A stretch of 63,894 nucleotides of DNA from an uncultured Candidatus Saccharibacteria bacterium (GTDB taxonomy: Bacteria; Patescibacteriota; Minisyncoccia; UBA6257; WO2-44-18): positions 15,494-79,387 of the forward strand of contig CAYHXN010000001.1 in assembly GCA_964360605.1 (NCBI GenBank). Reading direction: 5' to 3'. Made by a program: the position numbers and the translations under genes. Under the pieces are notes generated by a model. The model worked only from the letters and a program-made list of their open reading frames with translations, did no database searches and was not told the origin of the DNA. Shown piece by piece: positions 9,193 to 59,213 of this stretch. Each line of letters begins with the position of its first letter. Positions within the stretch are counted from its first letter, which is position 1.

Positions 9193-9220
9193 TTCCTAAT
9201 TCCTAATTCCTAATTCCTAA
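9193..9220. repeat. Perfect tandem heptamer (TTCCTAA)x4, which is (TTAGGAA)x4 on the coding strand
   Basis: Read directly. It spans the neuA1 stop codon (9203..9205), encodes the C-terminus ...LGIRN*, and ends 6 nt upstream of the ATG of 8246..9187. Each unit carries an SD-like AGGAA. Confidence 0.9.
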
Positions 9221-9943: not shown

Positions 9944-11105
9944 AAAAACGTTTTTGCGAATACAGTTTAGTCTTACTCAAAACCTCCATTATTTTTTTAC
10001 TGGTGCCAGGCCTGTAATAAATATTAGATTTTGGATACGCTCCGTGAGTAATCTGTTTTTGGATTGCTTTTTTAATTTCTTGTTTGTTGTAACCGACATC
10101 TAAAACGTTTGGTCCACGCAGGCGACCATTCTGACGACTTCCGATATTTACTACCGGCACACCCAGAAAAGAACATTCTTTAATACCGGCGGAAGAGTTA
10201 CCGACAAGAACGCTCGATCGCCGCAAAAGAGCAACGAAATCCTCCGGAAGTAAGTCGGTGATGAATCGGATTTTTTTGTTTTTCAATTTTCCTTGCTCGC
10301 GATAAACACGAATGGCTTTGGAAATTTCATTAGTACCAGCATCGCTGTTGGGCCAAAAAACGACTGTCGGCAAATTTATATCATCAACGGCTTCTAGGGT
10401 CATTTCCATATTCCGACGATTATTTTTCTCCGTAGTCACGGGGTGCTGCATCAACATTAAAAATGGCTTCTTCGTATCTATTTGAGCGCCTAAACCGCTT
10501 TTATTAACCAATCCCCCGTCCAACTTCGGGTCAACTAAAGAAGCAAATTCCGTATCCGGAGACCCGACATTAAACACGTTCCGCGGGTTTTCTCCCATCT
10601 GAATCACTCGACGACGCGCGTCTTCGTTGGTCACAAAATGAATATGCGAAAGCTTAGTAATAGCGTGCCGAACACTCTCATCGATTGTGCCAGTCAAATC
10701 TCCCCCCTCTAAATGCGCCACGGTTTTATTTAAATAAGCCGATACCATCGCTACTGCTAATTGTTCAAAACGATCCCCACGAATCAAAACAATGTCCGGA
10801 TTAAGTTTGTACAAAGAATTAGCGAATTCCAGCGCGGTCAATCCGGCGGTCTTGGCCATCGTTATGTGACTTCCTCCGTCAATAACATTAAAAAGCGTCT
10901 CGTTCACGGTAAATCCCGCCTCCCGCATGGCAGGTAAAAAACGCTCCCCGTATTTATCCAATAAGATTGAGCCCCCAGCCACTAATTGAAGCTCTAACCG
11001 AGGGTTTTTCTGAAGAAGCGATAAAAGACGCTTTTGCCTGGCGTAGTGAATACGACTCATGATTGGGAAGCAAATTTTACGTTTCTCTTTGGTTTTTTTA
11101 GACAT
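9924..11105 (-). CDS. neuC: UDP-N-acetylglucosamine 2-epimerase, NeuC-like (probably hydrolysing)
   Basis: 393 aa with VAHLEGGDLTGTIDESVRHAITKLSHIHFV and GNSSAGIKECSFLGVPVVNIGSRQ. It overlaps neuA1 by 20 nt. Confidence 0.8.
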   Translation of the reverse strand: MSKKTKEKRKICFPIMSRIHYARQKRLLSLLQKNPRLELQLVAGGSILLDKYGERFLPAMREAGFTVNETLFNVIDGGSHITMAKTAGLTALEFANSLYKLNPDIVLIRGDRFEQLAVAMVSAYLNKTVAHLEGGDLTGTIDESVRHAITKLSHIHFVTNEDARRRVIQMGENPRNVFNVGSPDTEFASLVDPKLDGGLVNKSGLGAQIDTKKPFLMLMQHPVTTEKNNRRNMEMTLEAVDDINLPTVVFWPNSDAGTNEISKAIRVYREQGKLKNKKIRFITDLLPEDFVALLRRSSVLVGNSSAGIKECSFLGVPVVNIGSRQNGRLRGPNVLDVGYNKQEIKKAIQKQITHGAYPKSNIYYRPGTSKKIMEVLSKTKLYSQKRFYEKTNS

Positions 11106-15079: not shown

Positions 15080-16978
15080 TTAACGACGGATCGCGTAAAT
15101 TTTAACAAGGGAATTCTTATAGATCAACGAGAGCCCCGAGTCATTTTCTAAGGAACGAATGGCTAACTGCTCCTCCATAGGTCCTACAAAAACATAATCT
15201 GCTGGCACCGCTTGCCAATTAACTTTCAAATCTTGATAACGCCTAATCAATTCTTCAATTTTTTCCCCGCGCTTCTTGGTAATAATCTCACGATCCGCTC
15301 CAGACAAAAACTGGTGGAAAGAACCATAGCGGCTAGGGAAATAATTTCCGTAAAGATTGCCGAAACTGTCGTTTAAATTACTCCCCTTGTCTGGAAAACA
15401 TTCATAACTTTCACAACCGGCATCTAATTGGCCGGCCAACCGTTTACGCAAAGTTTCTCCCGAAACCCCAAAAAGTTTGTGGCTAGTCAGATACCGGTCT
15501 TCCATTTCTTGCATACTCATTAAGGTGGTAAACGCTGTCGGCAGATACGGCCGCGCGGCTGTGTGACTGGTTAAATAAAACGAGGTCATAGTTGAAGGAG
15601 AAATAATTTTTGGCTCGCCGGGAATGTTTTCTTTAATCCAATCCCACGATTCGGCAACTTCACCGGGGAAACGATAATAATCAACCAAATGCGACTGAAG
15701 GCAGCAGTTTATATAAACAATGTTCACTATTTTTTTAGTAATCAGCATCGCGCTTAAAACTAAAAAGATTCCAACAATAATTTTTTCCGCCGACCGCCAG
15801 CGTGCTTCTATCCGCTTTATAATTTCAAAAATCACAGCGAAGGAAACTATAAAAATTGCTGGCGCAATCGGTCGGCGGAAAAAATGAGGCACCGGAGAAA
15901 AACCGGCTACCAGCTGAACGTTCCAGACTAAAAACATGGCTGAGATTAAAGCCAAAAGGAAAATGGCCATGTTTTTATCTCGCCGCCAAAACGTCGCCCA
16001 AACGACTACCGCTAACCCGATGTAAAAAGCATAATCAGCTAAATTACCGACATCTATTCCCACTACCCGCCCGAAGGCCACGCCAGCTCGGTAAGTAAAA
16101 TCAGAAGAGGTCGGCAAAGCGCTGAATTGCAAATATCCGACTACGTAAGGCAGAATCGCGATCGCGAACGCAATCAAAAACCAGATAAAATACCTCAAGC
16201 GATTTGGGTCATACTTGCGGAAAATTAACGAATAAACAAAAAGTGTCCCCCAAGCAATAGTCCAATAAACCCAGTGATGAAAATAGGTGTAAAAAATTAG
16301 TCCAGAAAAAATTCCCGCCCAAACTGCTTTTACCCGGCTCGGTGAACGCCAAAATAAAAAGAATAATGCGATAGCGGCAAGATAAATCGGATAAGTCAAA
16401 AGAGGTTCGTCAACTCGGGCAAGATAAAGCTGGTCAAATTGGGTGCGAACAAACGGAAAAAAGTTATTCAAAAAAAACGCCTGAAACTCCGCTAAGCCCT
16501 GCCACTTATAAAAAGGAAGTTTTAAGACAATCGGCGTTAGCGTCCCCGTCAATCCGAGGAACAAAGCTTTGGCGCGAGAAGCGGTAAAAAGCCAGCCCAG
16601 CCAGTAAAAAAGCGCGAAGATTGCCCCAACAAAGAAAAACTGCGCGCCCAGATAAGCCGAATCAGTATTTCCACCAAACAAAACTAGAAAGGGAGCGAAT
16701 AAAGCCGGCGGCAAAGGATTTTGAACAGTGGGCAATTGATGATCGCCGTAAAGTTCCGATGGCGGAAAATGCCCTTCGTAAACTTCCCGAGCCCTACCCA
16801 AATATGCCTGCAAAGAATCACGATAAGTTTTATATTGCGCTAAAACAAAACGCTGGCCGTTTTCTTCAAAATTCCTTTTCACCGCTAGAGGCGGACCAAT
16901 ATAAACAAAACCGACTGACACGGCAGCCACGATTACTAAAATTAAATGGGGTTTAATGGCCTGAAAACTAAATCTCAT
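15080..16978 (-). CDS. Large polytopic membrane protein, paralog family A (GT-C-like glycosyltransferase candidate)
   Basis: 632 aa with more than 10 hydrophobic segments and a C-terminal soluble domain. A conserved first loop (REVYEGHFPPSELYGD) and the motifs FFPFVRT, ARVDEPL, FYTYFHHWVYW and VWNVQLVAGFSP are shared with 38680..40542 and 61364..63275. Confidence 0.55.
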   Translation of the reverse strand: MRFSFQAIKPHLILVIVAAVSVGFVYIGPPLAVKRNFEENGQRFVLAQYKTYRDSLQAYLGRAREVYEGHFPPSELYGDHQLPTVQNPLPPALFAPFLVLFGGNTDSAYLGAQFFFVGAIFALFYWLGWLFTASRAKALFLGLTGTLTPIVLKLPFYKWQGLAEFQAFFLNNFFPFVRTQFDQLYLARVDEPLLTYPIYLAAIALFFLFWRSPSRVKAVWAGIFSGLIFYTYFHHWVYWTIAWGTLFVYSLIFRKYDPNRLRYFIWFLIAFAIAILPYVVGYLQFSALPTSSDFTYRAGVAFGRVVGIDVGNLADYAFYIGLAVVVWATFWRRDKNMAIFLLALISAMFLVWNVQLVAGFSPVPHFFRRPIAPAIFIVSFAVIFEIIKRIEARWRSAEKIIVGIFLVLSAMLITKKIVNIVYINCCLQSHLVDYYRFPGEVAESWDWIKENIPGEPKIISPSTMTSFYLTSHTAARPYLPTAFTTLMSMQEMEDRYLTSHKLFGVSGETLRKRLAGQLDAGCESYECFPDKGSNLNDSFGNLYGNYFPSRYGSFHQFLSGADREIITKKRGEKIEELIRRYQDLKVNWQAVPADYVFVGPMEEQLAIRSLENDSGLSLIYKNSLVKIYAIRR

Positions 16979-16999: not shown

Positions 17000-18061
17000 C
17001 TAATAAGCACGGTCCTGATCGCCTCCTCCTTTAGTAGTATACCAGTTGTACAAATCCCAAGTCCTAGAATTGTCTAAACTTTTGCCGATTTTCACGGCAA
17101 AGTTTAAATAACGGCGTTTGGCGCTAACTGGATTAAAAAGCAGCGGAACCTCGTTGTAGCCGACCCGCTCTCCATCAATAAAACCGGCGGCGCTCAAAGA
17201 ATCGCGGTGGAACGGGCCACTGGAAAAATAATCAATAAAATCCAAACCGGAAGCGCGGCAAAAATCAACTACTCCGCCGATGGCAAACAGCTCGGCTTCT
17301 TCGTCAGAAATGAAATCAATAAGTCTGCCGACTTTAATTCCCAGTGGCCCGCTTTCCGTCTTCGGCTCTTCAATCCGTAAAATTGCCAGTGCTTTAATTT
17401 CTTCTCCGCTTTTTACAGCCAACATCCGGTATTTAATCAAAGGATTGCGAGCATAACGCCAATTTAGATAAACCGCGTTGCGTTCAATGGCGATTGGATA
17501 ACGATTCTGAATCTTATGCCAGAAAATATCCGTTTCTTTGCTAAATTCGGTTACTTCATCAAAGTGCCAATTTTTTTCGGTATTAATTTTGTGCGATGAA
17601 GCGGGTAGATCATAAAGCGCGTTTTTAGGATTAATGACATATAAATAGCGTTTTAGATTCTCTCCTTTCCAGCCGGCTTTCATAAAAATCGGCCAGGCCG
17701 TTTCATTAATAGTGTGATCTAAGGCAAGATCGGCAAGCGCCGCCGCTTTTTCCATCAATAAATATCCGTAGCCCAAACTTCTCAAGGATTTTTTAACGAT
17801 TAAATTACAGAGCGAAACACCAGAAACTGTTTGGCCGAAAAAGTTAAATGGGGACGCGAATAAACCAAAAGTACCAACCAGCGTTTCGCTGGAATCAAAT
17901 AAACCAAGCGATTCGTAGGATTCTTTGTTCAAATTAAATGGCCCGTCAAACTGCCAATCATAATAAATTTTGTTGGTTAAAATGTGGCCGGGCTTGTATT
18001 CCGCTTCATTAAAAGCGCGCAGTTTTTCCCATTCAGATTTTTTTATTGGCCTTATTTCCAT
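17000..18061 (-). CDS. Two-domain GNAT/Fem-like acyl(aminoacyl)transferase candidate
   Basis: 353 aa and soluble. The N-terminal half has a GNAT-like beta-strand and helix (CNLIVKKSLRSLGYGYLLMEKAA). The second half looks like a repeat of the fold. Assignment is by resemblance only. Confidence 0.45.
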   Translation of the reverse strand: MEIRPIKKSEWEKLRAFNEAEYKPGHILTNKIYYDWQFDGPFNLNKESYESLGLFDSSETLVGTFGLFASPFNFFGQTVSGVSLCNLIVKKSLRSLGYGYLLMEKAAALADLALDHTINETAWPIFMKAGWKGENLKRYLYVINPKNALYDLPASSHKINTEKNWHFDEVTEFSKETDIFWHKIQNRYPIAIERNAVYLNWRYARNPLIKYRMLAVKSGEEIKALAILRIEEPKTESGPLGIKVGRLIDFISDEEAELFAIGGVVDFCRASGLDFIDYFSSGPFHRDSLSAAGFIDGERVGYNEVPLLFNPVSAKRRYLNFAVKIGKSLDNSRTWDLYNWYTTKGGGDQDRAY

Positions 18062-18077
18062 AGTTCTTATTTATTAT

Positions 18078-18098
18078 TTCCTAATTCCTATTTCCCAG
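18078..18098. repeat. Degenerate tandem heptamer TTCCTAA-TTCCTAT-TTCCCAG at a gene junction
   Basis: Read directly. It overlaps the DltC-like stop (C-terminus ...LGNRN*) and lies upstream of the GNAT-like start at 18061. The unit is related to the 9193..9220 array. Confidence 0.6.
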
Positions 18099-18320
18099 TT
18101 CTTTAATTCCCGTAATAATAGTATTTATAGAATTAAAATTTTCCGTTGTAAGTCTTTCCATATCCAGCTTCACGCCCAACTCTTTTTCAATAAAATCTAT
18201 CAACTTAATCATCGTGAAAGAATCCAAAACCCCGCCCGCGATTAAATCAACGTCTTCATTGCCAATTTTCTTCTGCGTTTCTTTTTCTAAAAATTTTGTA
18301 ACCTTGTTTTTAATATCCAT
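18081..18320 (-). CDS. DltC-like acyl/aminoacyl carrier protein
   Basis: 79 aa from the ATG at 18320. AGGVLDSFTMIKLIDFIEKELGV closely resembles the Ser-attachment region of D-alanyl carrier proteins (…LLDSFGTVELL…). Confidence 0.8.
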   Translation of the reverse strand: MDIKNKVTKFLEKETQKKIGNEDVDLIAGGVLDSFTMIKLIDFIEKELGVKLDMERLTTENFNSINTIITGIKELGNRN

Positions 18321-18328
18321 GTCGCTTG

Positions 18329-19855
18329 TCACTTGTTAATTGTCACTTGTATTTCTTCTCTTAATTTAACTCTATCAATTTTTCCTGTGCTGGTCTTTGG
18401 TAATTCCCGCCGATGAATTTCATCGGGTATCAAATACTGCGGCACTAATTTCGCCAAATCTTTTTTAATTTCCTCAACGCTTTTAGTTTCTTTTAAATTT
18501 ACGAAGGCGTTCAATTTATTGCCCCCGCTTTCTAAATCGAAAACCGCAATAGCCGCCGATTCATTGACGTAGGGCAAAGAATTCAACGCGGCTTCCACGT
18601 CCCCCAACTCAACACGATTACCTCGTATTTTTACCTGATTGTCTTTCCGGCCAATAAATTCATAATTCCCGTCTTCGCGGAGCCGTACTAAATCGCCGGT
18701 TTTATAAATAATCCCGCCATCCGACTTAAACGGATGCTTTATAAAAGAAATCGCCGTCCGTTCCGGATCGTTCCAATACCCCTTGCCGACTCCTAGCCCG
18801 TCAACATAAAGCTCTCCCACCTCACTCGGTTTGGCTAAAAAACCGCTATCGGTTACCGCGAAAATTTCCATTCCGCCGGTCGCTTTGCCAATTGGAACAA
18901 ATTTAGAAAAATCAGTCGGCGGTTCTTTTATTATATAAAAAGAGCACTGAACGGTTGTTTCGGTGGGTCCGTATAAGTTCACAAAGGTCTTTTCCGAAAA
19001 TGCCGTCATCCATTCAGCTAAGAATTTTGACGGAAATCCTTCTCCGTTAAATAAAACTTTGGTTAAGTTTTGCATCCGCCCAGGTTTTACCAGCCCCGCA
19101 ATAGCCAGATGAACCATTACCGACGGAACAGAATTCCAAATAGTCAGCCGATTTTCTTCAATAAATTTAATCAGCTGGCCCGGAAATAAAGAATATTCCT
19201 CCGGCACTAGAAACAAGGTCGCACCGGCTTTCCAGGCGCAATATAAATCAAAAGTAGAAAGATCGAAATGTAGCGGCGGATGCTGAGACATTTTGTCCAT
19301 ATGAGTAATACCCAGTTCACTCACTGCCCAATCGGTGGCGTTGATAATATTTGCATGAGTAATCATTACGCCCTTAGGTTTTCCGGTGGATCCGGAGGTG
19401 TAAAGAATGTAAGCCAAATCGGAACTTTCGTTTTTATAAGCCAAAGGCGCTGTCGGCTGATCACTTACGAAATCTTTTTCACTGTCCAAATTGAAAATAC
19501 CGGCAAAGGTTTCCACTAAAGGCAGGCTAGCGTTATCACAAATAACTAACCTTGGAGCAACATCGTTAACAATCTGTTGAAGTCGCGCCACCGGTGCTTT
19601 GGCGTTAAGCGGAACGTAAACTGCGTCAGCTTTGAGAGTGCCGAGAATAGCGTTAACGGCCTTTAAGGATTTGCTTAAACAAAAACCGACTCGATCACCG
19701 CGTTTCACTCCACGAGCTTTTAACGCTCGCGCCAACTGGTTACTTGTGCTATCTAATTCGGTATAAGTAATTTTCACACCCTTAAAAATTACCGCTGGGT
19801 GGTCAGGATATTTTTGCGATGATTCTTCAAAATATTGTTGAATTAGTTTAATCAT
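18329..19855 (-). CDS. Stand-alone adenylation enzyme (ANL superfamily), DltA-like carrier-protein ligase
   Basis: 508 aa with LAYILYTSGSTGKPKGVMITH, YGPTETT, YKTGDLVR and GRKDNQVKIRGNRVELGDVE. The size and lack of other domains match DltA-type enzymes. Confidence 0.85.
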   Translation of the reverse strand: MIKLIQQYFEESSQKYPDHPAVIFKGVKITYTELDSTSNQLARALKARGVKRGDRVGFCLSKSLKAVNAILGTLKADAVYVPLNAKAPVARLQQIVNDVAPRLVICDNASLPLVETFAGIFNLDSEKDFVSDQPTAPLAYKNESSDLAYILYTSGSTGKPKGVMITHANIINATDWAVSELGITHMDKMSQHPPLHFDLSTFDLYCAWKAGATLFLVPEEYSLFPGQLIKFIEENRLTIWNSVPSVMVHLAIAGLVKPGRMQNLTKVLFNGEGFPSKFLAEWMTAFSEKTFVNLYGPTETTVQCSFYIIKEPPTDFSKFVPIGKATGGMEIFAVTDSGFLAKPSEVGELYVDGLGVGKGYWNDPERTAISFIKHPFKSDGGIIYKTGDLVRLREDGNYEFIGRKDNQVKIRGNRVELGDVEAALNSLPYVNESAAIAVFDLESGGNKLNAFVNLKETKSVEEIKKDLAKLVPQYLIPDEIHRRELPKTSTGKIDRVKLREEIQVTINK

Positions 19856-19860
19856 GGCCG

Positions 19861-20265
19861 TTAGGAATTAGTCATTAAAGCAACTGCGGTAGCGTAATCT
19901 TTCGTATGAGAAATGGAAATAAGTACCTGAATCTTGCCGCCTGTGGCGAGCCTCGCCTTCTGAAAAATTATTGAATCGGTGGCGGGAAAACTTGAAACTT
20001 GAAGCTTAACCCTTGGACTTCCATCTTTTTTATTTAAAATTTCAATATTTTTCGCTTTATAAATCGTGCTCCCCAACGATTTAATCACTGCTTCTTTAGC
20101 GGCAAATTTACCGGCAAAATGCTGGTGGGGATTAGATTTAGAAAGACAATATTTTATTTCTTGGTCGGTAAAAATCTTTGTATAAAAACTCTGATTTTTC
20201 ACGTAAGGTATTTTCCGAAACTTTTTTACCTCTACTATATCTATACCTACATTTTTTATTTTCAT
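19861..20265 (-). CDS. acpS: Holo-[acyl-carrier-protein] synthase (4'-phosphopantetheinyl transferase)
   Basis: 134 aa with GIDIVEVKKF...FTDQEIKYC...HFAGKFAAKEAVIKSLG...ISISHTKDYATAVA. Confidence 0.85.
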   Translation of the reverse strand: MKIKNVGIDIVEVKKFRKIPYVKNQSFYTKIFTDQEIKYCLSKSNPHQHFAGKFAAKEAVIKSLGSTIYKAKNIEILNKKDGSPRVKLQVSSFPATDSIIFQKARLATGGKIQVLISISHTKDYATAVALMTNS

Positions 20266-21614
20266 AATTGGTTCAAAATGAACTGGGTAATTCGCTCACC
20301 CGCCTTACCATCTAATTGGCAACACTGCTCCTCCACCAAACGCCTTCGTCCCTCTCGATCTAAAGATGGGTTTTCTAAATACTGATTTATTTGATTTATA
20401 AGCTCCTGCCTGTTTCTAGGATAGGCAATACCGCCGGTAAGCACCGCTTTAGCGTAGTGAGTCATTTTATAAAAATAAGTTGGGGATTTAGAGGCAAGCT
20501 CCTTTTCCCTTACCTCAAAATTAATATTGATAACTGGTTTATCAAAAACCGCCGCGTCAATACTCATACTGGAAGCGTAGCAAATAAAAACGTCCGTGTT
20601 GGCCAACGTATCCGTAAGACCGCGAATATCCTCAAAGCTCATATCCCAATCTACTCCCCGCTTGGAAGAAAAACGGATTCCCGGCAAGTCGTACTTAAGA
20701 CGCGGGCGCTTAATCAATTCATCTTTATCGGTAAAATCGTTCGGTTGGAAACGAACAAGTAGCTGGGCGTTTCTAATCTCACCGCTTTCTGTCGCGGAAC
20801 TCAACAGGTCAATAATATCCCAATCAGAGTTACTAAACGCTTTTCCCATTGGAGCGTAAACAATAAGTTTTTTATTCAAATCTAAGCCTTTTTTGGAAAG
20901 AAATACGTCGCGCGACACTGGCTTGTAATTAATATGCCAATCGTATTGTGGAATACCAGTAACGCAAATATCTTCCCGAGCCATATCCGCGTGACAGATT
21001 GCCTCCTCTTCCACTAAATGGTTAAAAACTATTAACTTATCCGGAAGTAATCTCAAGCTGTTGCGGGCTGTTAATTTATCCCAAGAATTAATAAAACCGA
21101 TGGTTGGAACGTCTCTATGCATCGCTTCCCGCAATAGATGCGCTTCTAAATCATCAAATAGGTGAGCTAAGAAAACTACCGATGGTTTATATTTTTCAAA
21201 ATACCCAGAAAAAGTTCGGTCTTTAACCAAAAAATAATCTAGCGCTCTCGCTACTTTCCGGAAAAAACGGCGGGCCAGCAATCTATTCAGTGCCCAATTA
21301 ATCCAATAGCGCGGGTAGCTTATGCCTGTTTCTAATGCCATTTTACGCCGCAAGTCCACAGTTTCCGTCCGCAATAAGAAGAATTTCAAACCAGAAAAAA
21401 ACTTATCCCACCCCCGAAGAACCGGAGCCGAAACCGATTCGTAAATTACATTGGGATTAGAAAATTCTTTTTGATAGTAGGCGGCCCGCTCTAGCGTTCC
21501 CACAAAAAAAACTATTCGCACCGCCGGTTGTTTTACAAGATTTTTATAAATATCGGTACGCAAAATATTCTTCGCTTCCACGCCCTGAAAGATAGTAATG
21601 AATATTGTTTTCAT
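20262..21614 (-). CDS. TagB/TagF-like GT-B protein (CDP-glycerol glycerophosphotransferase-like), paralog 1 of 4
   Basis: 450 aa with LIVYAPMGK, TDVFICYASSMSIDAAVFDKPVININ and a C-terminal NPSLDREGRRRLVEEQCCQLDGKAGERI tail that resembles the Glyphos_transf family. Clear paralog of 42405..43772, 43776..45131 and 57061..58395. Confidence 0.5.
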   Translation of the reverse strand: MKTIFITIFQGVEAKNILRTDIYKNLVKQPAVRIVFFVGTLERAAYYQKEFSNPNVIYESVSAPVLRGWDKFFSGLKFFLLRTETVDLRRKMALETGISYPRYWINWALNRLLARRFFRKVARALDYFLVKDRTFSGYFEKYKPSVVFLAHLFDDLEAHLLREAMHRDVPTIGFINSWDKLTARNSLRLLPDKLIVFNHLVEEEAICHADMAREDICVTGIPQYDWHINYKPVSRDVFLSKKGLDLNKKLIVYAPMGKAFSNSDWDIIDLLSSATESGEIRNAQLLVRFQPNDFTDKDELIKRPRLKYDLPGIRFSSKRGVDWDMSFEDIRGLTDTLANTDVFICYASSMSIDAAVFDKPVININFEVREKELASKSPTYFYKMTHYAKAVLTGGIAYPRNRQELINQINQYLENPSLDREGRRRLVEEQCCQLDGKAGERITQFILNQL

Positions 21615-21619: not shown

Positions 21620-21646
21620 AAAAAAAATCTCCGATGATTCGGAGAT
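21620..21646 (-). terminator. Intrinsic terminator after the transaldolase-like gene
   Basis: Minus-strand RNA reads AUCUCCGA-AUCA-UCGGAGAU followed by U8. The U-tract ends only 5 nt before the ATG of 20262..21614. Confidence 0.75.
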
Positions 21647-21681
21647 TTCTAAGTTTTATTATAATCTATTTTTACTAGATT

Positions 21682-22350
21682 TTAAAGCATTCCGGCATCA
21701 CGCAAAAATTGCTCTTGAGTCTCCACGCTTTTCTTCTGGTAAATAATTTTTGGCATAAATTTAGGCGGAACAGTAACAATATGAACTCCCGCTTCGTAAA
21801 CGTCAAAAACATCCCGAGCCTCCCTAATACTTCCGGCAATAATTTCAGATTTTAGATTGCAGTCATCAAGCTCTTTTCGAGTTTTTTTTATTGTGGCCAA
21901 TCCGTCGGAACCCATGTCTATAATACGCCGATAAAGCAAGCTAACGTATTTCGCGCCCGCTTTTGCGGCCCAAAATGCTTGATGCCAATCCACGCAAGCG
22001 GTGCAATTTACCGTAATTCCTGAATCACTTAACTTGTGGACCACCCCTAAACGGTCCGTCCCATCCACGCCCAAAATCGGAATTTTGATTGCCAACCCGG
22101 AATAATTTAATACTCGGATAAAATAATCAGCCTGCCTTAACATTGCCCCCGGAGTATCGCCAAACACTTCCACGCTCAGAGAAATTGGCTCCTTGCTATA
22201 AGCTCGTATCGCTTCAATAATTTTTTTCCAAATGGGAATAGGATTTTTCTTTTTTACCAAAGAAGGGTTAGTGGTAATTCCATCTAAAATCCCGGTTTTT
22301 AACCATTTTTCTATTTCTCCAAGGTCTGCCGTATCTAGAAAGATTTTCAT
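21682..22350 (-). CDS. Transaldolase-family protein (TalC / fructose-6-phosphate aldolase type)
   Basis: MKIFLDTADLGEIEKWLKTGILDGITTNPSLV...IKIPI...ITVNCTAC...AKAGAKYVSLLYRRIID. The start at 22350 is preceded by GAGG. Confidence 0.85.
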   Translation of the reverse strand: MKIFLDTADLGEIEKWLKTGILDGITTNPSLVKKKNPIPIWKKIIEAIRAYSKEPISLSVEVFGDTPGAMLRQADYFIRVLNYSGLAIKIPILGVDGTDRLGVVHKLSDSGITVNCTACVDWHQAFWAAKAGAKYVSLLYRRIIDMGSDGLATIKKTRKELDDCNLKSEIIAGSIREARDVFDVYEAGVHIVTVPPKFMPKIIYQKKSVETQEQFLRDAGML

Positions 22351-22399
22351 CTTTACCTCAAAAGTTCTGTTATTAAAATAGCCGTAAAAAAAAGCGGCG

Positions 22400-23035
22400 T
22401 CAATGGCCGCTATTTTCAAATTCTTTGATTTTGTTTTTAAGGCAGAAAATAATTAAGTGCTGGATAACGACCTGAAAAGACTCCACGAGAGCGGTTTTTA
22501 GTTCCTTATTGGTAACAATGCGAATAGGCGCGTCCACCATCTCTAAAAGCGGGCCGCCGCCGGCTATCGCAATCGTTTGACCGCCGACATCTTTAATTTT
22601 TTGGATTCCCTTAAGCAAATTCTGAGACCACTTTCCACCTAAATCCGAACCCTCTCCGCCATTTACGCTCAATCCGATACCAACCCCGCCACCCTCATAG
22701 TAATTGTCCAACCAAGCAGTAAAGTAATCCTCTTTCGCCCTATCGTTTACGATCGCGGTACTGTGCGGGATATTATCCCACAAAGTTAGGGCATGTATTC
22801 CCCTCTGTCCAGGAACGTCATTAATGGTCTTTGCCAGATCACCGGCAAAATGGGAGGCGGTGGAAGCCGATCCGCCGTTGCCTAAAATATAAACTTTCCG
22901 TCTGTCCTCCCACGCCTCAAAAAGAATCTGGATTGCTTTTTCTATCTCCACCGCTTGCCCTTCTAGCTTTTTAGATATCTCGCTGGAATGCTTTAAGTAA
23001 TTTAAAATAAATTCCCGATCGTCGTTTTCTTTCAC
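22400..23035 (-). CDS. SIS-domain sugar-phosphate isomerase, GmhA-like (sedoheptulose-7-phosphate isomerase candidate)
   Basis: KVYILGNGGSASTASHFAGDL matches the GmhA/SIS motif. A GTG start is preceded by GGAG. Confidence 0.7.
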   Translation of the reverse strand: MKENDDREFILNYLKHSSEISKKLEGQAVEIEKAIQILFEAWEDRRKVYILGNGGSASTASHFAGDLAKTINDVPGQRGIHALTLWDNIPHSTAIVNDRAKEDYFTAWLDNYYEGGGVGIGLSVNGGEGSDLGGKWSQNLLKGIQKIKDVGGQTIAIAGGGPLLEMVDAPIRIVTNKELKTALVESFQVVIQHLIIFCLKNKIKEFENSGH

Positions 23036-23099
23036 CGTATTGCTCCGAAAAAGTGCTGCTTATAACGTAAACAAGCGCGACCTTCGGGTCAATATTGAC

Positions 23100-23122
23100 A
23101 AAAAATCCCGAATGTATCGGGA
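23100..23122 (-). terminator. Intrinsic terminator after the SDR gene 23133..23975
   Basis: Minus-strand RNA reads UCCCGA-UACAU-UCGGGA followed by U6. Confidence 0.65.
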
Positions 23123-23132
23123 CTCTTTTAAT

Positions 23133-23975
23133 CTACCAGCTCTTTCCGCGATGCTCCGGTTTCACCCGGCGCATATTATATATGTCGGTGCTCTGTAAAT
23201 CATTAAGATGACCAGGAAACTCTTTATATTTATCGTGTAAAGCGCTCAAATATTTTCCGGTAACACCGGTCGCTTCCGGAGACGCCAGCCAAAAAATTAA
23301 CTGGGCGGCTTTTTCCGGCGGTACTCCGCCATCGGATTTTTGTTTAACCGAACGCTCCCAAATCTCCTTACCCACCTTTCCCTCTCCCGCTAACAAGAGA
23401 TTGTCCAGAAACTTTGTATTTACTCCTCCCGGAGCAATAGCATTTACATAAATTTTATAACTCTTTAACTCATCACCCAAACTTTCAGTAAAGCGAATAA
23501 TCGCGCCCTTGGAAGAGCTGTAGGCGGTGAAACGCGGTAAAGCTCCGTCGCCGCCTCCAGAAAAATTCACGATCCGGCCACCGCCCTGCTTTTTCATAAA
23601 CGGTATGGTCATTTTACACATTGCTACCGTGCCGAAAACATTAATATCAAAAGTTTTTTTCCATTCCGCTAAATCGTTATCAGCTAATTCGCCTATCGGC
23701 CCATAAATACCGGCGGCATTAACTAGTACATCCAAACGACCGTCAAAACTCTTTTCTATATAAGACTGAATTTTAGAAACGTCATTGGCGCTGGAAACGT
23801 CCGCCACTAAAACATTAATCGTTGGAGAAATCTTAGAAAGTTCGGCTTTAGTTGACTCTAATTCGCTTAGGGTTCTAGAAACTATTAAAATGTGGTCGCC
23901 ATTGCGCGCAAAATCGGCGGCTACGGCTTTCCCGATACCCCTGCCCCCACCAGTTATTATCACGTTTCTAAACAT
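23133..23975 (-). CDS. Short-chain dehydrogenase/reductase (classical SDR)
   Basis: VIITGGGRGIGKAVA, NAAGI and YSSSKGAI (YxxxK). Confidence 0.85.
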   Translation of the reverse strand: MFRNVIITGGGRGIGKAVAADFARNGDHILIVSRTLSELESTKAELSKISPTINVLVADVSSANDVSKIQSYIEKSFDGRLDVLVNAAGIYGPIGELADNDLAEWKKTFDINVFGTVAMCKMTIPFMKKQGGGRIVNFSGGGDGALPRFTAYSSSKGAIIRFTESLGDELKSYKIYVNAIAPGGVNTKFLDNLLLAGEGKVGKEIWERSVKQKSDGGVPPEKAAQLIFWLASPEATGVTGKYLSALHDKYKEFPGHLNDLQSTDIYNMRRVKPEHRGKSW

Positions 23976-23996
23976 AATTATCTTTTAAAATACTTT

Positions 23997-25109
23997 TTAT
24001 ATTTTAACAATTTTTTGTTTTTTGAGAAGCTTCTCGCTAGCTTGCCAATATTTTTTTGCTTCTGGATATTGCTTGATCCAACTTACGTATTCTTTAACAT
24101 TATCTTTTAATTCATACTTGGACGACCAACCTAATTGTTTTAGTTTAGAAATATCCATTATTTGATGACGCGGCGTATTAAGACGGTATTCTCCGACAAT
24201 CACCGGTTTGAAAGGAATATTAGCCTCTTTCGCGACTAACCGAGCCACATCCAAGACAGTGGTAACTTTCCCGCTTCCGATATTAAAGGCTTCGTAATCC
24301 GCGCGTGAATCGGTTAATACTTTCAGATGAGCAGAGGTTACGTCTTTAATATTAACAAAATCCCTAATCTGTTTCCCATCCTCGTGAATACTTAACGGCT
24401 GACCCGATAATCCTTGAACAGCGAACGCCCTTAACGCGCCGGAATAAAAATGGCGGAAGGATTGGCGCGGTCCATGGACGATTGAGTAACGTACCGCCAC
24501 CGTGGGAATCTGATAGATTTTTCCAAGCACCAAAGCGGTCCGTTCAGACGCTAACTTAGAAATTCCGTAGGGAATCTGCGGATTCAGCGTGTCATCTTCT
24601 TTCTCTGGTAAGGGCCGAACAATACTACCGTCAATAGGACAGCGCATCTCCCAGTCTTTTTTCCGCAATTGTTTTTCGGAACGATGCTGAAGATACAAAG
24701 TCTTGTGCTTAGAACAATTATATTTCCCCTCTCCGTAAACCGATTGCGAAGAAGTAATGATTATTTTTTGGATCGGCAGTCTTTTCTCAACGATAATCTC
24801 GTAAATCATCGCCGTACTAGCCGTATTGGTAGCAAAATACGTACTAAAATCCAGCCGATAATCCATGTAGGCCGCGAGATGAAAAACATAATCAACGCCA
24901 GCCAAAGATTTTTCTAAATCCTTGCGTTCCCTAACGTCGCCTTTAATGAATTCCGATTTTTTGTTAAACCATTCTGGTAATTTTCCGTTGTGGGTTGGCG
25001 GTGCCAAATTATCCAAGACTCGCACCGCGTAACCGGCTCCTATAAGGCCATCTACTAGATGCGAACCGATAAAACCGGCACCGCCAGTTACTAGAACAAG
25101 TCCTTTCAT
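23997..25109 (-). CDS. NAD-dependent nucleotide-sugar epimerase/dehydratase (extended SDR)
   Basis: [18 protein letters not shown] and YGISKLASE (YxxxK). At 370 aa it carries an insertion relative to typical 4-epimerases. Confidence 0.85.
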   Translation of the reverse strand: MKGLVLVTGGAGFIGSHLVDGLIGAGYAVRVLDNLAPPTHNGKLPEWFNKKSEFIKGDVRERKDLEKSLAGVDYVFHLAAYMDYRLDFSTYFATNTASTAMIYEIIVEKRLPIQKIIITSSQSVYGEGKYNCSKHKTLYLQHRSEKQLRKKDWEMRCPIDGSIVRPLPEKEDDTLNPQIPYGISKLASERTALVLGKIYQIPTVAVRYSIVHGPRQSFRHFYSGALRAFAVQGLSGQPLSIHEDGKQIRDFVNIKDVTSAHLKVLTDSRADYEAFNIGSGKVTTVLDVARLVAKEANIPFKPVIVGEYRLNTPRHQIMDISKLKQLGWSSKYELKDNVKEYVSWIKQYPEAKKYWQASEKLLKKQKIVKI

Positions 25110-25125
25110 ATCATTTTAATATAGG

Positions 25126-25155
25126 AAAAAAAAATCCCGAGTTCAAGCTCGAGAT
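25126..25155 (-). terminator. Intrinsic terminator overlapping the HAD gene stop
   Basis: Minus-strand RNA reads AUCUCGAG-CUUGAA-CUCGGGAU (one G-U pair) followed by U9. Confidence 0.75.
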
Positions 25156-25853
25156 TGGGCAGATTCTTCGTTCAAATTTTTTATCAAAGCAGGGGTGTTA
25201 ATCTCATCCCAATTCATAAATACTCTATGCGCACCCGCTTCCACTAAGGCGTTCACCGTATCCGGCCGATTGTATATAGGCATACCGATAGTCAAACACC
25301 CAACAGTTACCGCTCCCAAAATACCACGCGGCGAGTCTTCAAAAACAAGCTGTTCCGTGGTGTTCACTCCGGCTCTTTCGGCAGTTTCATCCCAAACATC
25401 CGGAGATGGCTTCAATTGCTTAACATCATCTCGGAGAACAACTAAACGGGGATCAAAATACTTATCCAGCCCGGAACTCTCCATCAGCATCTTAGCGTAT
25501 TTTTCAGTGGTTAAACTCCCAACAGTCATTTTATAGTCGTTGCGCTTCAACCATTCTAAAACTTCAACTAATCCTGAACGGGCAACGATCTTAGACTTTT
25601 CCAAAAACTTTTCGTAATGGCTTTTATCCAACTCTAAAATTAACTTCCAATCAACCGGAGAGGGGGCTAGAGCCGCTATTTCTTTCGCGATGTCTTCATC
25701 CGGCCCGCCGATAAAATGGGGAATTTTCTGAAAACAATCCTCCATTGTTAGCTTCACACCGACAATGGAAGCGGCCGCGATGTGGGCGTTGTGATGAGCG
25801 GCTTCCACGTTGACCATTGTTCCTTCTAAATCAAAAGCCACCGCTTTTATCAT
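25143..25853 (-). CDS. HAD-superfamily hydrolase (beta-phosphoglucomutase/phosphatase-like, subfamily IA)
   Basis: AVAFDLEGTMV (DxD/E motif I), GSLTT and FEDSPRGILGA. Confidence 0.8.
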   Translation of the reverse strand: MIKAVAFDLEGTMVNVEAAHHNAHIAAASIVGVKLTMEDCFQKIPHFIGGPDEDIAKEIAALAPSPVDWKLILELDKSHYEKFLEKSKIVARSGLVEVLEWLKRNDYKMTVGSLTTEKYAKMLMESSGLDKYFDPRLVVLRDDVKQLKPSPDVWDETAERAGVNTTEQLVFEDSPRGILGAVTVGCLTIGMPIYNRPDTVNALVEAGAHRVFMNWDEINTPALIKNLNEESAQSRA

Positions 25854-29805: not shown

Positions 29806-29829
29806 TAAAAAGCCCGCCTAGGAGGCGGG
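29806..29829 (-). terminator. Intrinsic terminator overlapping the radical SAM gene stop
   Basis: Minus-strand RNA reads CCCGCCU-CCU-AGGCGGG followed by CUUUUUAUU. Confidence 0.7.
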
Positions 29830-35909: not shown

Positions 35910-36006
35910 AATTAACTATCTTAATTTAATTTTTAAAATTAGGTCTGTCAATTTTGACTTTTTTAAAAATTAGTTGTAAAATCTTATCGGACTTTTGAAA
36001 GGAATA

Positions 36007-36957: not shown

Positions 36958-36965
36958 AATTTACG

Positions 36966-36991
36966 CCGCGCTATACAGCGCGGATTTTTTT
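36966..36991 (+). terminator. Intrinsic terminator after the IMPase-like gene
   Basis: CCGCGCU-AUAC-AGCGCGG followed by AUUUUUUUAU. Confidence 0.8.
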
Positions 36992-37011
36992 ATCTAAAAT
37001 AAACTTGAATT

Positions 37012-45131: not shown

Positions 45132-45174
45132 CACTGGAAAATTATGCCATATCGCGTTAATATAATCAAATAAA

Positions 45175-59210: not shown

Positions 59211-59213
59211 AAT

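What the first reader, a model, noticed from the sequence alone, without database searches (positions are those of the whole stretch)
17000..20265. dlt-like carrier-protein decoration module without DltB/DltD, with a dedicated AcpS and a two-domain GNAT/Fem-like protein
**Seen.** Four tightly packed co-directional genes encode:
- a holo-ACP synthase (GIDIVEV...);
- a 508-aa stand-alone adenylation enzyme (YTSGSTGKPKG, YGPTETT, YKTGDLVR);
- a 79-aa carrier protein whose Ser region, GGVLDSFTMIKLIDFIE, resembles D-alanyl carrier protein DltC;
- a 353-aa soluble protein that looks like a duplicated GNAT fold.

The module is translationally linked to a TagF-like gene upstream (4-nt overlap at 20262..20265). 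It is followed by a GT-C-like membrane protein.

**Established.** In canonical D-alanylation, DltA loads DltC, and the membrane proteins DltB (MBOAT) and DltD move the D-alanyl group to teichoic acid. Neither is present in this window.

**Inference.** The GNAT/Fem-like protein may replace DltB and DltD. It would transfer an aminoacyl or acyl group from the carrier protein to a sugar or polymer on the cytoplasmic side. That would be a distinct route for aminoacylating an envelope glycopolymer.
Basis: partly seen in the sequence, partly recalled or inferred. Interest (0 to 1): 0.75.

Follow-up and report, generated by a model that had tools for sequence, protein, structure and literature searches.

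The report
Carrier-protein aminoacyl module for surface sugars
A Patescibacteria (CPR) glycan locus holds a conserved cassette that probably loads a small amino acid onto its own carrier protein and passes it, through an uncharacterised double-GNAT transferase, to a surface sugar; it resembles teichoic-acid D-alanylation but is not a Dlt system.

Summary
The four genes are real and sit where stated on the minus strand. They are AcpS (19861..20265), a stand-alone amino-acid adenylation enzyme (18329..19855), a DltC-like carrier protein (18081..18332) and a 353-aa soluble protein (17000..18061).

- **The 353-aa protein.** Its AF2 model (pLDDT 93.7) is a duplicated GNAT fold. The best structural match is N-myristoyltransferase. 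No FemAB model matches it by sequence.
- **Conservation.** AcpS–A–CP–dupGNAT recurs in 12 other Patescibacteria loci. In the closer subfamily an orthologous TagF-like gene precedes it.
- **Fusions.** In the wider family (about 3,000 representative clusters at E≤1e-10) the dupGNAT is fused to a carrier protein, to an AMP-ligase, or to FkbH plus ACP. This supports a carrier-protein-borne acyl donor.
- **Adenylation pocket.** The code DLFNLNLVQK keeps Asp235 and Lys517, so an α-amino acid is expected. It is not DltA's D-Ala code (5/10 identical). It is closest to the NRPS Cys cluster, which its source derives from Ala- and Gly-type domains (7/10).
- **Dlt components.** No DltB or DltD is present in the window. 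The rest of the genome could not be searched.
- **Context.** The neighbours point to nonulosonic-acid glycans more than to teichoic acid.

This is a new variant of carrier-protein-dependent glycan acylation. The acceptor is unknown.

The parts
20262..21614 (-). TagF/TagB-like GT-B transferase (450 aa), first gene of the conserved five-gene block. Its stop overlaps the AcpS start by 4 nt.
   Evidence: PF04464 scores 37.7 bits against a cutoff of 22.1, and there is a sub-threshold NCBIfam BFO_1060 family hit. Specific orthologs (410-690 bits, against 95-290 for paralogs) lie upstream of AcpS in L001, L005, L006, L011-L015 and L017, directly or with one intervening gene (a dupGNAT paralog in L001, a small GNAT in L005 and L006).
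19861..20265 (-). Holo-carrier-protein synthase (AcpS-type phosphopantetheinyl transferase, 134 aa)
   Evidence: PF01648 59.7 bits; TIGR00556 85.8 > 45.35; TIGR00516 64.9 > 59.8. It is present in all 12 other Patescibacteria cassette loci, in L010, and next to the dupGNAT in L022.
18329..19855 (-). Stand-alone amino-acid adenylation enzyme (508 aa). Pocket code: D198 L199 F202 N241 L268 N270 L294 V302 Q303 K492, equivalent to GrsA positions 235/236/239/278/299/301/322/330/331/517.
   Evidence: TIGR01733 scores 397.2 > 317.4. DltA models score 306-309 bits, below cutoffs of 476 and 560. The code is conserved in the window and the 12 other cassette loci.
18081..18332 (-). Carrier protein (83 aa from GTG, or 79 aa from the ATG at 18320) with the Ser attachment site in GGVLDSFTM
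   Evidence: PF00550 scores 21.2 > 20.8. The best NCBIfam hit is DltC NF003464 at 38.6 < 68. The Ser is invariant in an alignment of 15 cassette carrier proteins.
17000..18061 (-). Duplicated-GNAT (dupGNAT) acyl/aminoacyl transferase, 353 aa, soluble. The N-terminal GNAT carries R94-x-x-G97-x-G99. The C-terminal tail K344-G-G-G-D348-Q-D350-R351 is conserved.
   Evidence: AF2 pLDDT 93.7, pTM 0.91. Foldseek top 50 hits are N-myristoyltransferases plus one Eis-like GNAT, E about 1e-13, TM 0.50-0.56.
15080..16978 (-). GT-C-fold membrane protein (632 aa) directly downstream. It is a neighbour, not a conserved partner of the cassette.
   Evidence: No Pfam or NCBIfam family reached its curated cutoff; the only hit was a sub-threshold Pfam DUF5985 match, 21.0 < 27.3. 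AF2 pLDDT 87.4. Foldseek top 27 hits are all GT-C enzymes (DPY19, STT3/PglB, AftA, ArnT, AglB), E 1e-6 to 3e-2 (24 at E≤1e-3). An ortholog lies directly downstream of the dupGNAT only in L005; in L006 one lies about 2 kb downstream, after two other genes.
21623..21686 (-). Terminator-like hairpin (21650..21623) and promoter-like site (21686..21658) just upstream of the TagF-like start. This is a possible start of the transcription unit.
   Evidence: Consensus scans only. Not evidence of function.
9203..11105 (-). NeuC-like UDP-GlcNAc 2-epimerase (9924..11105) and NeuA-like CMP-ulosonic acid synthetase (9203..9943). These are the recurrent neighbours of the cassette.
   Evidence: PF02350 238 bits and PF02348 86 bits. 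Orthologs follow the dupGNAT directly in L013, L014 and L015. They lie within 10 kb in 10 of the 11 loci with sufficient flank.

Best explanation
This is a cytoplasmic, carrier-protein-dependent aminoacylation cassette for a surface glycan.

1. AcpS converts the 79-83-aa carrier protein to its holo form. This step is inferred from family membership.
2. The stand-alone adenylation enzyme activates a small α-amino acid and loads it as a thioester on the carrier protein. The pocket is closest to the NRPS Cys cluster, which its source derives from Ala- and Gly-type domains; the exact residue and its chirality are unknown. This step is inferred from motifs and from Asp235/Lys517.
3. The double-GNAT protein binds the aminoacyl-phosphopantetheine arm in its N-terminal GNAT domain (R-x-x-G-x-G). 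It transfers the aminoacyl group to an amine or hydroxyl of a sugar acceptor, which is probably anionic. The donor part is supported by synteny and by gene fusions. The acceptor part is inferred.
4. The acceptor is most likely a nonulosonic-acid-type or other amino sugar, or its nucleotide-linked precursor. It would be handled by the co-conserved TagF/BFO_1060-like transferase. The acceptor is less likely to be a poly(alditol-phosphate) teichoic acid.

No membrane MBOAT step is needed because the transfer happens before export.
For: - **Gene identities and packing:**
- **Pocket:** the code DLFNLNLVQK keeps Asp235 and Lys517. It is conserved as D-L-F-(N/D)-(L/F/C)-N-(L/M)-V-Q-K in the window and the 12 other cassette loci. 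It is identical at 7 of 10 positions to the Cys-cluster signature D235 L236 N278 L/M299 L/M322 I/V330 K517; that paper traces the cluster to Ala- and Gly-type domains (PMC12283262).
- **dupGNAT fold:** AF2 pLDDT 93.7. Foldseek hits N-myristoyltransferases at E about 1e-13 and TM 0.50-0.56.
- **GNAT membership:** all 31 aligned members hit GNAT Pfam models at E≤1. R94, G97 and G99 are invariant.
- **Synteny:** AcpS-A-CP-dupGNAT is conserved in 12 other Patescibacteria loci at 38-61% identity.
- **Fusions in the wider family** (241 representatives at E≤1e-30 and 3,080 at E≤1e-10):
  - PP-binding+dupGNAT (P0126, P0129)
  - AMP-binding+dupGNAT (P0139)
  - FkbH+ACP+dupGNAT (P0130, P0215)
  - the same parts unfused in L020 and L022
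- **Acceptor charge:** Arg138, 194, 202, 229, 246 and 351 and the D-x-D-x-D-R tail are conserved family-wide. This fits an anionic acceptor.
- **NulO context:** NeuC/NeuA/NeuB lie in or next to the block. The TagF-like gene resembles the Tannerella Pse/Leg transferase family.
Against: - Nothing here shows chemistry. The donor amino acid, the acceptor and the bond type (amide or ester) are not determined.
- The dupGNAT could use an acyl-CoA instead of the carrier protein.
- The window lacks a DegT-type aminotransferase, so a free sugar amine would need de-N-acetylation. A CE4 deacetylase is present, but 24 kb away (41501..42463).
- One close locus (L006) shows no NeuC or NeuA within 10 kb.
- The last four residues of the dupGNAT model have low confidence, so a catalytic role for the tail is only an analogy with N-myristoyltransferase.
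- E-values for the GNAT hit on the window protein alone are sub-threshold.
Confidence: 0.62

Rival explanations
1. This would be a Dlt replacement: D-alanine (or another amino acid) is loaded on a DltC-like protein and esterified by the double-GNAT protein, in the cytoplasm, onto a poly(alditol-phosphate) teichoic-acid-like polymer made by the TagF-like enzyme.
For: - The carrier protein's best NCBIfam hit is DltC (E 8e-10).
- DltA models are among the top hits of the A enzyme.
- An orthologous PF04464 TagF-like gene is translationally coupled to AcpS and conserved in the block.
- Five TagF-like paralogs lie in the window.
- No DltB or DltD is present in the window.
- Patescibacteria are thought to have Gram-positive-like envelopes (own knowledge).
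Against: - DltA and DltC equivalog scores are far below their cutoffs.
- The pocket shares only 5 of 10 residues with DltA, and Cys269 is Asn here.
- NRPS A domains and PltF score higher than DltA.
- No TagD-type (PF01467) glycerol-3-phosphate cytidylyltransferase was found in the window.
- The TagF-like protein also resembles CMP-nonulosonic-acid transferases.
- In the 38%-identity subfamily (L003, L007) the cassette sits inside Pse/Leg-type operons with no adjacent TagF ortholog.
Confidence: 0.13
2. Type II NRPS-like tailoring. The amino acid is chemically modified while tethered to the carrier protein (methylated, formylated, oxidised). Only the modified acyl group is then transferred by the dupGNAT. 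Alternatively, the product is a small N-acyl metabolite and not a glycan decoration.
For: - In the pocket region the best PDB relative is the type II prolyl-carrier-protein ligase PltF (91 bits, against 57 for DltA).
- Tailoring-type genes sit inside or beside cassettes in other loci:
  - FolD and a formyltransferase in L001
  - methyltransferases in L003 and L007
  - PdxA in L010
  - a methyltransferase and a B12-radical SAM enzyme between FkbH, CP and dupGNAT in L022
Against: - In the window itself no tailoring gene lies inside the cassette.
- Every locus examined is a glycan locus with glycosyltransferases and nucleotide-sugar genes. A free metabolite is therefore unlikely.
- The neighbouring formyl-, acetyl- and methyltransferases could equally cap the amino group after transfer.
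Confidence: 0.13
3. The double-GNAT protein is an ordinary CoA-dependent N-acetyl/acyl transferase of the sugar pathway. The aminoacyl-carrier protein is used by a different, unidentified enzyme, for example a membrane protein encoded elsewhere.
For: - The R-x-x-G-x-G motif binds CoA as well as a phosphopantetheine arm.
- The AMP-ligase fused to the dupGNAT in P0139 is of the fatty-acyl-CoA-ligase type and has no carrier domain.
- The whole genome could not be searched for DltB/DltD-type partners.
Against: - Direct CP-dupGNAT and FkbH-ACP-dupGNAT fusions exist.
- CP and dupGNAT genes are adjacent or overlapping in 11 of the 12 other cassette loci, and separated only by FolD in L001.
- AcpS lies next to the dupGNAT in L022.
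- No other candidate transferase is conserved with the cassette.
Confidence: 0.1

Closest known systems
Dlt D-alanylation system (DltA, DltC, DltB, DltD, DltX) of Firmicutes
   Same: - It has a stand-alone adenylation enzyme plus a small dedicated carrier protein.
- The carrier protein's Ser region resembles that of DltC.
- It serves an envelope glycopolymer locus.
   Different: - DltA and DltC equivalog models are not met.
- The D-Ala pocket is not conserved (5/10 identical, Cys269 replaced by Asn).
- No MBOAT (DltB) and no DltD lie in the window.
- The predicted transfer enzyme is a soluble cytoplasmic double GNAT.
- A dedicated AcpS is part of the cassette.
- The acceptor is not shown to be teichoic acid.
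AlmEFG glycine modification of Vibrio cholerae lipid A (own knowledge; AlmE = PDB 4OXI)
   Same: - This is a Dlt-like A enzyme plus carrier protein that works without DltB or DltD.
- A cytoplasm-facing acyltransferase puts a small amino acid on a glycolipid.
- AlmE is among the PDB relatives of the pocket region (54 bits).
   Different: - AlmG belongs to the lysophospholipid-acyltransferase family and is membrane-bound.
- Here the transferase is a soluble double GNAT of an uncharacterised family.
- The context is a nonulosonic-acid and heptose glycan locus, not lipid A.
NodB / NodA / NodF-NodE of rhizobia (own knowledge)
   Same: - The logic is to remove an N-acetyl group with a CE4 deacetylase and then N-acylate the freed amine from a dedicated carrier protein.
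- CE4 genes lie next to or inside the cassette in L003, L007, L008 and L010, and near it in L011 and L020.
   Different: - NodA has a different fold and transfers a fatty acyl group.
- In the window the CE4 gene is 24 kb away.
- The donor here is an amino acid.
N-myristoyltransferase and other duplicated-GNAT enzymes (FemX, MprF C-terminal domain)
   Same: - The predicted fold is two tandem GNAT domains. N-myristoyltransferases fill nearly all of the top 50 Foldseek hits.
- The N-terminal domain carries the pantetheine-pyrophosphate motif.
- The strongly conserved extreme C-terminus recalls the catalytic C-terminal carboxylate of N-myristoyltransferase (own knowledge; this is an analogy only).
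   Different: - There is no sequence similarity: 9-13% identity, and no PDB chain at E<0.01.
- No FemAB hit appeared, and NMT Pfam hits are only insignificant.
- The donor is predicted to be a carrier-protein thioester, not CoA or tRNA.
- The acceptor is a sugar, not a peptide or a lipid.
Campylobacter jejuni flagellar glycosylation locus (cj1299-cj1308: ACPs, FkbH-domain cj1302, an amino-acid-activating enzyme)
   Same: - Acyl-carrier-protein chemistry is embedded in a pseudaminic/legionaminic-acid decoration locus.
- cj1302 is an FkbH-domain gene (PMC7099621), and Cj1308 is a putative ACP (PMC6338021).
- Dimethylglyceric-acid-modified Pse is produced there.
- This parallels the FkbH-ACP-dupGNAT and A-CP-dupGNAT modules found here.
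   Different: - The Campylobacter genes are known only by annotation, and I know of no assigned transferase. The description of Cj1307 as an 'amino acid activating enzyme' is from memory.
- No dupGNAT homolog was shown there.

Membership tests
Dlt system | DltA: D-alanine-specific carrier-protein ligase (NCBIfam TIGR01734 / NF003417) | tested here: not met
   Scores are 306.1 against a cutoff of 559.85, and 309.5 against 476. The pocket DLFNLNLVQK compares with B. cereus DltA DLMTLCTVAK at 5 of 10 identical.
Dlt system | DltC: D-alanyl carrier protein (NF003464 / TIGR01688) | tested here: not met
   Scores are 38.6 against a cutoff of 68, and 24.9 against 52.35. DltC is the best-scoring named family, but the scores are below threshold.
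Dlt system | DltB (MBOAT) and DltD encoded with dltA and dltC | tested here: not met
   Neither an MBOAT nor a DltD Pfam hit appeared on the window ORFs of at least 120 aa on the coding strands; the four antisense ORFs inside scanned genes were not scanned. Pfam listings for the flanks of L001, L003 and L005-L007 show none either. The rest of the genome is not testable with these tools.
NRPS-type amino-acid adenylation domain | TIGR01733 above its cutoff, with Asp235 and Lys517 present | tested here: met
   The score is 397.2 > 317.4. D198 and K492 align to GrsA 235 and 517.
AcpS-type phosphopantetheinyl transferase | PF01648 / TIGR00556 / TIGR00516 above their cutoffs | tested here: met
   Scores are 59.7 > 25, 85.8 > 45.35 and 64.9 > 59.8.
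GNAT superfamily | GNAT fold with the R/Q-x-x-G-x-G/A pantetheine-pyrophosphate motif | tested here: met
   The window protein alone is sub-threshold (18.2 < 20.7). All 31 of 31 aligned members match PF00583 at E≤1, with a best E of 1.8e-9. R94, G97 and G99 are invariant. The AF2/Foldseek probability is 1.00 to two-GNAT enzymes.
FemABX family | Sequence membership (Pfam FemAB) and an aminoacyl-tRNA donor | tested here: not met
   No FemAB hit appeared at E≤1 in any of the 31 members. No Fem structure appeared in the profile search of PDB sequences or in the top 50 Foldseek hits. Donor use is not testable here.
N-myristoyltransferase family | Sequence membership (PF01233 / PF02799) | tested here: not met
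   Only 3 of 31 members give insignificant PF01233 hits, with a best E of 0.077. The fold is similar (TM 0.50-0.56) at 9-13% identity.
TagF/TagB glycerophosphotransferase family | PF04464 above its cutoff; CDP-alditol donor | tested here: inconclusive
   PF04464 scores 37.7 > 22.1, over residues 211-447 only. The TarF equivalog scores 21 against a cutoff of 550. There is also a BFO_1060 (Pse/Leg transferase) family hit of 49.3 against a cutoff of 200. Donor specificity is not testable.
GT-C glycosyltransferases (632-aa neighbour) | GT-C membrane fold | tested here: met
   The AF2 model has pLDDT 87.4. The top 27 Foldseek hits are all GT-C enzymes, E 1e-6 to 3e-2 (24 at E≤1e-3), TM 0.26-0.49. 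No family was found by sequence.

The most novel reading that the evidence does not exclude
The double-GNAT family found here has about 3,000 representative clusters and no Pfam model for its C-terminal half. It also has no NCBIfam model and no solved structure. It may be the missing class of transferases that install non-acetyl acyl groups (aminoacyl, glyceroyl and others) on nonulosonic acids and related surface sugars. The acyl groups would come from dedicated carrier proteins, with interchangeable loaders (an amino-acid adenylation enzyme, FkbH, or a fatty-acyl ligase). In Patescibacteria it would put a small amino acid on the cell-surface glycan, entirely in the cytoplasm.
Probability: 0.35. 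Interest if true: 0.78.

Novelty: new variant of a known kind. Interest (0 to 1): 0.6.

Why it matters
- **Gap in enzymology.** Amino-acid and other unusual acyl substituents are common on bacterial surface sugars. Examples are N-alanyl, N-glyceroyl and N-hydroxybutyryl groups on nonulosonic acids and 6-deoxyamino sugars. The enzymes that install them are largely unassigned. The Tannerella literature says so explicitly for nonulosonic-acid modifications (PMC5378307).
- **A testable candidate.** A soluble transferase family that reads acyl groups off dedicated carrier proteins would fill that gap.
- **Dlt/AlmEFG logic extended.** It would add a third, structurally unrelated transfer enzyme to this kind of system.
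- **CPR surfaces.** It would give a first concrete handle on the surface chemistry of Patescibacteria, whose envelopes are almost unknown.
- **Tractability.** The four proteins are small and soluble, so the hypothesis can be tested directly in vitro.

Tried and rejected
- **Rfam and tRNA scans of the window.** Nothing was found.
- **Literature searches.** Six searches found no description of this cassette:
  - Patescibacteria plus teichoic acid
  - DltA/DltC/GNAT
  - FkbH/GNAT/O-antigen
  - aminoacyl carrier protein plus nucleotide sugar
  - nonulosonic/alanyl/carrier protein
  - FkbH plus pseudaminic
- **The Lipocone preprint.** It mentions Patescibacteria and teichoic acid but not this system.
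- **Exact-string search for the pocket code.** No paper held the window code or the DltA code. It did lead to a paper describing the Cys-cluster signatures and their Ala- and Gly-type origins.
- **Word-indexed protein searches.** They suggested a tiny Patescibacteria-only family of 66 clusters. The exhaustive HMMER search overturned this, with 3,080 representatives at E≤1e-10.
- **Structure prediction of the 632-aa protein with locus-derived sequences.** It was redone with database homologs.
- **One Pfam call.** It failed on bad coordinates.
- **Conserved GT-C partnership.** Considered and rejected. A GT-C directly follows the dupGNAT only in the window and L005 (one lies about 2 kb downstream in L006), although PMT_2-type GT-C genes follow it in L003 and L008.
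- **'Fem-like' classification.** Rejected.
- **Fatty-acyl or aryl-acid pocket.** Rejected, because Asp235 is kept.

Full report
**What is there.** The window is a Patescibacteria (CPR) metagenome-assembled contig. The 353-aa protein is 100% identical to 'MAG: hypothetical protein AAB885_01730 [Patescibacteria group bacterium]'. GC is about 41%. Nearly all genes lie on the minus strand.

The genes of the finding are exactly where stated:
- TagF-like, 20262..21614
- AcpS, 19861..20265
- adenylation enzyme, 18329..19855
- carrier protein, 18081..18332 (83 aa from GTG, 79 aa from the next ATG)
- 353-aa soluble protein, 17000..18061
- 632-aa membrane protein, 15080..16978

The TagF-like stop and the AcpS start overlap as ATGA. 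The other junctions are 5 nt apart, a 4-nt overlap and 19 nt apart. A terminator-like hairpin and a promoter-like site lie just upstream of the TagF-like start. These come from a consensus scan only.

**Family assignments.**
- AcpS passes PF01648, TIGR00556 and TIGR00516.
- The 508-aa enzyme passes the amino-acid adenylation model TIGR01733 (397 > 317). It fails both DltA models (306 and 309 bits, against cutoffs of 560 and 476).
- Against PDB sequences, its best relatives over the whole length are NRPS adenylation domains and the prolyl-carrier-protein ligase PltF (about 284 bits). DltA scores 190-212 bits.
- The carrier protein just passes PF00550. Its best named relative is DltC, but below the cutoff (38.6 < 68).
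- Its Ser is invariant in 15 cassette carrier proteins.

**The adenylation pocket.** I anchored on the A4 (FDxS) and A5 (NxYGPTE) motifs and on HMMER alignments to PltF and B. cereus DltA. The ten specificity positions read D L F N L N L V Q K.
- In the window and the 12 other cassette loci the code is D-L-F-(N/D)-(L/F/C)-N-(L/M)-V-Q-K. One substrate is therefore conserved.
- Asp235 and Lys517 are kept, which argues for an α-amino acid and against a fatty or aryl acid.
- DltA reads DLMTLCTVAK, which is 5 of 10 identical. The Cys that shapes its D-Ala pocket (own knowledge) is Asn here.
- PltF reads DLLYLALVCK, which is 6 of 10 identical.
- A published survey describes a Cys-activating cluster whose signature is D235 L236 Y/W239 N278 L/M299 L/M322 I/V330 W331 K517. 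It attributes the first four positions to Ala-type domains and the rest to Gly-type domains (PMC12283262). The window code is identical at 7 of 10 positions and has an aromatic residue at 239.
- I therefore infer a small amino acid. I cannot say which one, or which enantiomer.

**The 353-aa protein.**
- On its own it gives only a sub-threshold GNAT hit.
- An alignment of 31 homologs gave a confident AF2 model (pLDDT 93.7, pTM 0.91).
- The 50 best Foldseek matches in the PDB are N-myristoyltransferases plus one Eis-like GNAT (E about 1e-13, TM 0.50-0.56, 9-13% identity). This is a duplicated GNAT fold.
- All 31 members hit GNAT Pfam models at E≤1. None hits FemAB, and NMT hits are insignificant.
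- A profile search of PDB sequences finds nothing better than E = 0.013.
- The N-terminal GNAT carries an invariant R94-x-x-G97-x-G99. In GNATs this motif binds the pantetheine pyrophosphate (established knowledge of the superfamily).
- Across 117 distant full-length representatives the conserved positions include six arginines and a C-terminal W-Y-I-T-K-G-D-G-D-x-D-R-P-N tail. I read the arginines as a hint of an anionic acceptor. The tail is a possible parallel to the catalytic C-terminus of N-myristoyltransferase. Both readings are inference.

**Is the module real? Synteny.**
- Look-ups and a scan of 185,579 species genomes gave 12 further Patescibacteria loci: L001, L003, L005-L007, L011-L015 and L017, with L016, L018 and L019 as duplicates.
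- Local phmmer mapping shows AcpS-A-CP-dupGNAT in all of them.
- In the subfamily with at least 44% identity (the window plus nine loci), a specific ortholog of the window's TagF-like gene precedes AcpS. It scores 410-690 bits, against 95-290 for paralogs.
- NeuC- and NeuA-like genes follow the dupGNAT directly in L013-L015. They lie within 10 kb in 10 of the 11 loci with enough flank.
- In the 38%-identity subfamily (L003, L007) the cassette sits inside Pse/Leg-type operons (PseB-like, DegT, NeuB, NeuC, NeuA). It is flanked there by a CE4 deacetylase and a methyltransferase.
- The GT-C gene directly follows the dupGNAT only in the window and L005; in L006 an ortholog lies about 2 kb downstream.

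**Is the dupGNAT the partner of the carrier protein? Fusions.**
- The word-indexed searches suggested a small family of 66 clusters.
- An exhaustive HMMER search of 1.84 billion representatives found 241 at E≤1e-30, 3,080 at E≤1e-10 and 8,358 at E≤1e-3, matched over the full length.
- Among them are fusions:
  - PP-binding+dupGNAT (P0126, P0129)
  - fatty-acyl-ligase-type AMP-binding+dupGNAT (P0139)
  - FkbH+ACP+dupGNAT (P0130; P0215, named 'HAD-IIIC family phosphatase' from a Pirellulaceae MAG)
- Unfused versions also occur:
  - A/CP/dupGNAT next to NeuB, CE4 and a CMP-sugar synthetase in L020
  - TagF-like/FkbH/methyltransferase/CP/radical-SAM/dupGNAT/AcpS/KpsC-S-like in L022
  - AcpS/CE4/CP/A/.../dupGNAT/TagF-like in L010
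- In L010 and L020 the ligase lacks Asp235. The family therefore accepts different acyl groups, and the window's subfamily is the amino-acid one.
- These fusions are the strongest evidence here that the dupGNAT draws its acyl group from the carrier protein.

**Context of the window.** The Pfam scans covered the ORFs of at least 120 aa on the coding strands; the four that lie antisense inside scanned genes were left out. They found:
- no MBOAT/DltB and no DltD
- five TagF-like genes
- two NeuB genes, two CMP-ulosonic-acid synthetase genes and one NeuC
- a CE4 deacetylase (41501..42463)
- a YfhO-like protein
- a TagF-like/formyltransferase/FolD/SHMT set (57061..61288)
- a GDP-heptose-like set (transaldolase, SIS isomerase, HAD, GHMP kinase, nucleotidyltransferase)
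- GDP-mannose dehydratase and related genes

The TagF-like partner also hits the NCBIfam BFO_1060 family. That family is the Tannerella forsythia pseudaminic/legionaminic-acid-derivative transferases, which carry a TagB-like domain (PMC5420450). 'TagF-like' is therefore not evidence for a teichoic acid.

**The 632-aa neighbour.**
- It has no Pfam or NCBIfam family above a curated cutoff.
- There are three paralogs in the window.
- Homologs occur only in Patescibacteria-type MAGs, and three of them are fused to GT2.
- The AF2 model (pLDDT 87.4) matches only GT-C enzymes in its top 27 Foldseek hits.

**How it most likely works.**
1. AcpS primes the carrier protein.
2. The A enzyme loads a small amino acid.
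3. The soluble dupGNAT moves the amino acid to a sugar acceptor in the cytoplasm.

The donor side rests on family membership, synteny and fusions. The acceptor side is inference.

I favour a nonulosonic-acid-type or other amino sugar, or its nucleotide-linked precursor, as the acceptor, for three reasons:
- NeuC/NeuA/NeuB are the most constant neighbours.
- CE4 deacetylases recur next to the cassette. This parallels the NodB/NodA logic of removing an acetyl group and then re-acylating from a carrier protein (own knowledge).
- N-formyl-, N-acetyl- or methyl-transferases often flank the cassette. They would suit capping of a newly attached amino group.

**Comparison with known systems.**
- It works like Dlt and like Vibrio AlmEFG on the loading side.
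- It is not a Dlt system. The DltA, DltC, DltB and DltD criteria were each tested and not met within the window.
- Its transfer enzyme belongs to a family with no Pfam model for its C-terminal half, no NCBIfam model and no solved structure.
- The Campylobacter flagellar glycosylation locus is an annotation-level precedent for carrier-protein chemistry on nonulosonic acids. It has the FkbH-domain gene cj1302 (PMC7099621) and the putative ACP Cj1308 (PMC6338021).
- The Tannerella work states that the enzymes for such modifications are largely unknown (PMC5378307).

**Verdict.**
- Novelty: a new variant of a known kind.
- Interest: 0.6.

**Main uncertainties.**
- the identity of the amino acid
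- the acceptor and the bond type
- whether dltB- or dltD-like genes exist elsewhere in these genomes

Noticed in passing
window 15080..16978 (-), 38680..40542 (-), 61806..63275 (+): Three paralogous polytopic membrane proteins (33-38% identical) have no Pfam or NCBIfam family. The first has a GT-C fold by AF2 plus Foldseek. Homologs were seen only in Patescibacteria-type MAGs, and three of them are fused to a GT2 domain. This may be an undescribed GT-C family.
   Followed up: partly
window 1531..2637 (+), 20262..21614, 42405..43772, 43776..45236, 57061..58395 (-): There are five TagF/TagB-like (PF04464) paralogs in one 64-kb window. The first also gives weak hits to polysialyltransferase (PF07388). 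Together with two NeuB and two CMP-sugar synthetase genes, this suggests several ulosonic-acid transferases and not teichoic-acid polymerases.
   Followed up: partly
window 57061..61288 (-); L001 9194..11946: A one-carbon or formyl module is present: TagF-like, Formyl_trans_N, FolD, SHMT. In L001, FolD lies between the carrier protein and the dupGNAT, and the formyltransferase follows the dupGNAT. This hints at N-formylation of the sugar or of the attached amino acid.
   Followed up: no
window 21682..25853, 34917..37839: A GDP-heptose-like gene set is present: transaldolase, SIS (GmhA-like) isomerase, HAD phosphatase, GHMP kinase and a nucleotidyltransferase, together with a dehydratase/epimerase, an SDR and GFO oxidoreductases. 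The block directly upstream of the TagF-like gene is syntenic with L001.
   Followed up: no
L001 6054..7079: A second, divergent dupGNAT paralog (341 aa, 143 bits to the window protein) sits between the TagF-like gene and AcpS in the Parcubacteria Gr01-1014_3 locus. That cassette therefore has two transferases.
   Followed up: no
P0130, P0215, P0139, P0126, P0129; L009, L020, L022, L010: The wider dupGNAT family has interchangeable loaders: FkbH-ACP-dupGNAT fusions, a fatty-acyl-ligase-dupGNAT fusion and CP-dupGNAT fusions. Unfused FkbH or ligase versions also occur, in which the ligase lacks Asp235. One FkbH fusion (L009) lies in an exosortase-type polysaccharide locus.
   Followed up: partly
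L008 928..2978: Next to the ligase-dupGNAT fusion lie an Antibiotic_NAT gene and a DUF4910/DUF2172 gene. From memory, this pair resembles cj1296/97 and cj1295 of the Campylobacter flagellar glycosylation locus, and cj1295 is needed for the dimethylglyceric-acid form of pseudaminic acid (PMC7099621).
   Followed up: no
window 29818..31392 (-) and 49401..51341 (+): A B12-binding radical SAM enzyme (524 aa) lies within the glycan locus; similar genes appear in L003, L005, L010 and L022. There is also a 646-aa plus-strand protein with a Pol-beta-type nucleotidyltransferase domain. Neither has an obvious role.
   Followed up: no
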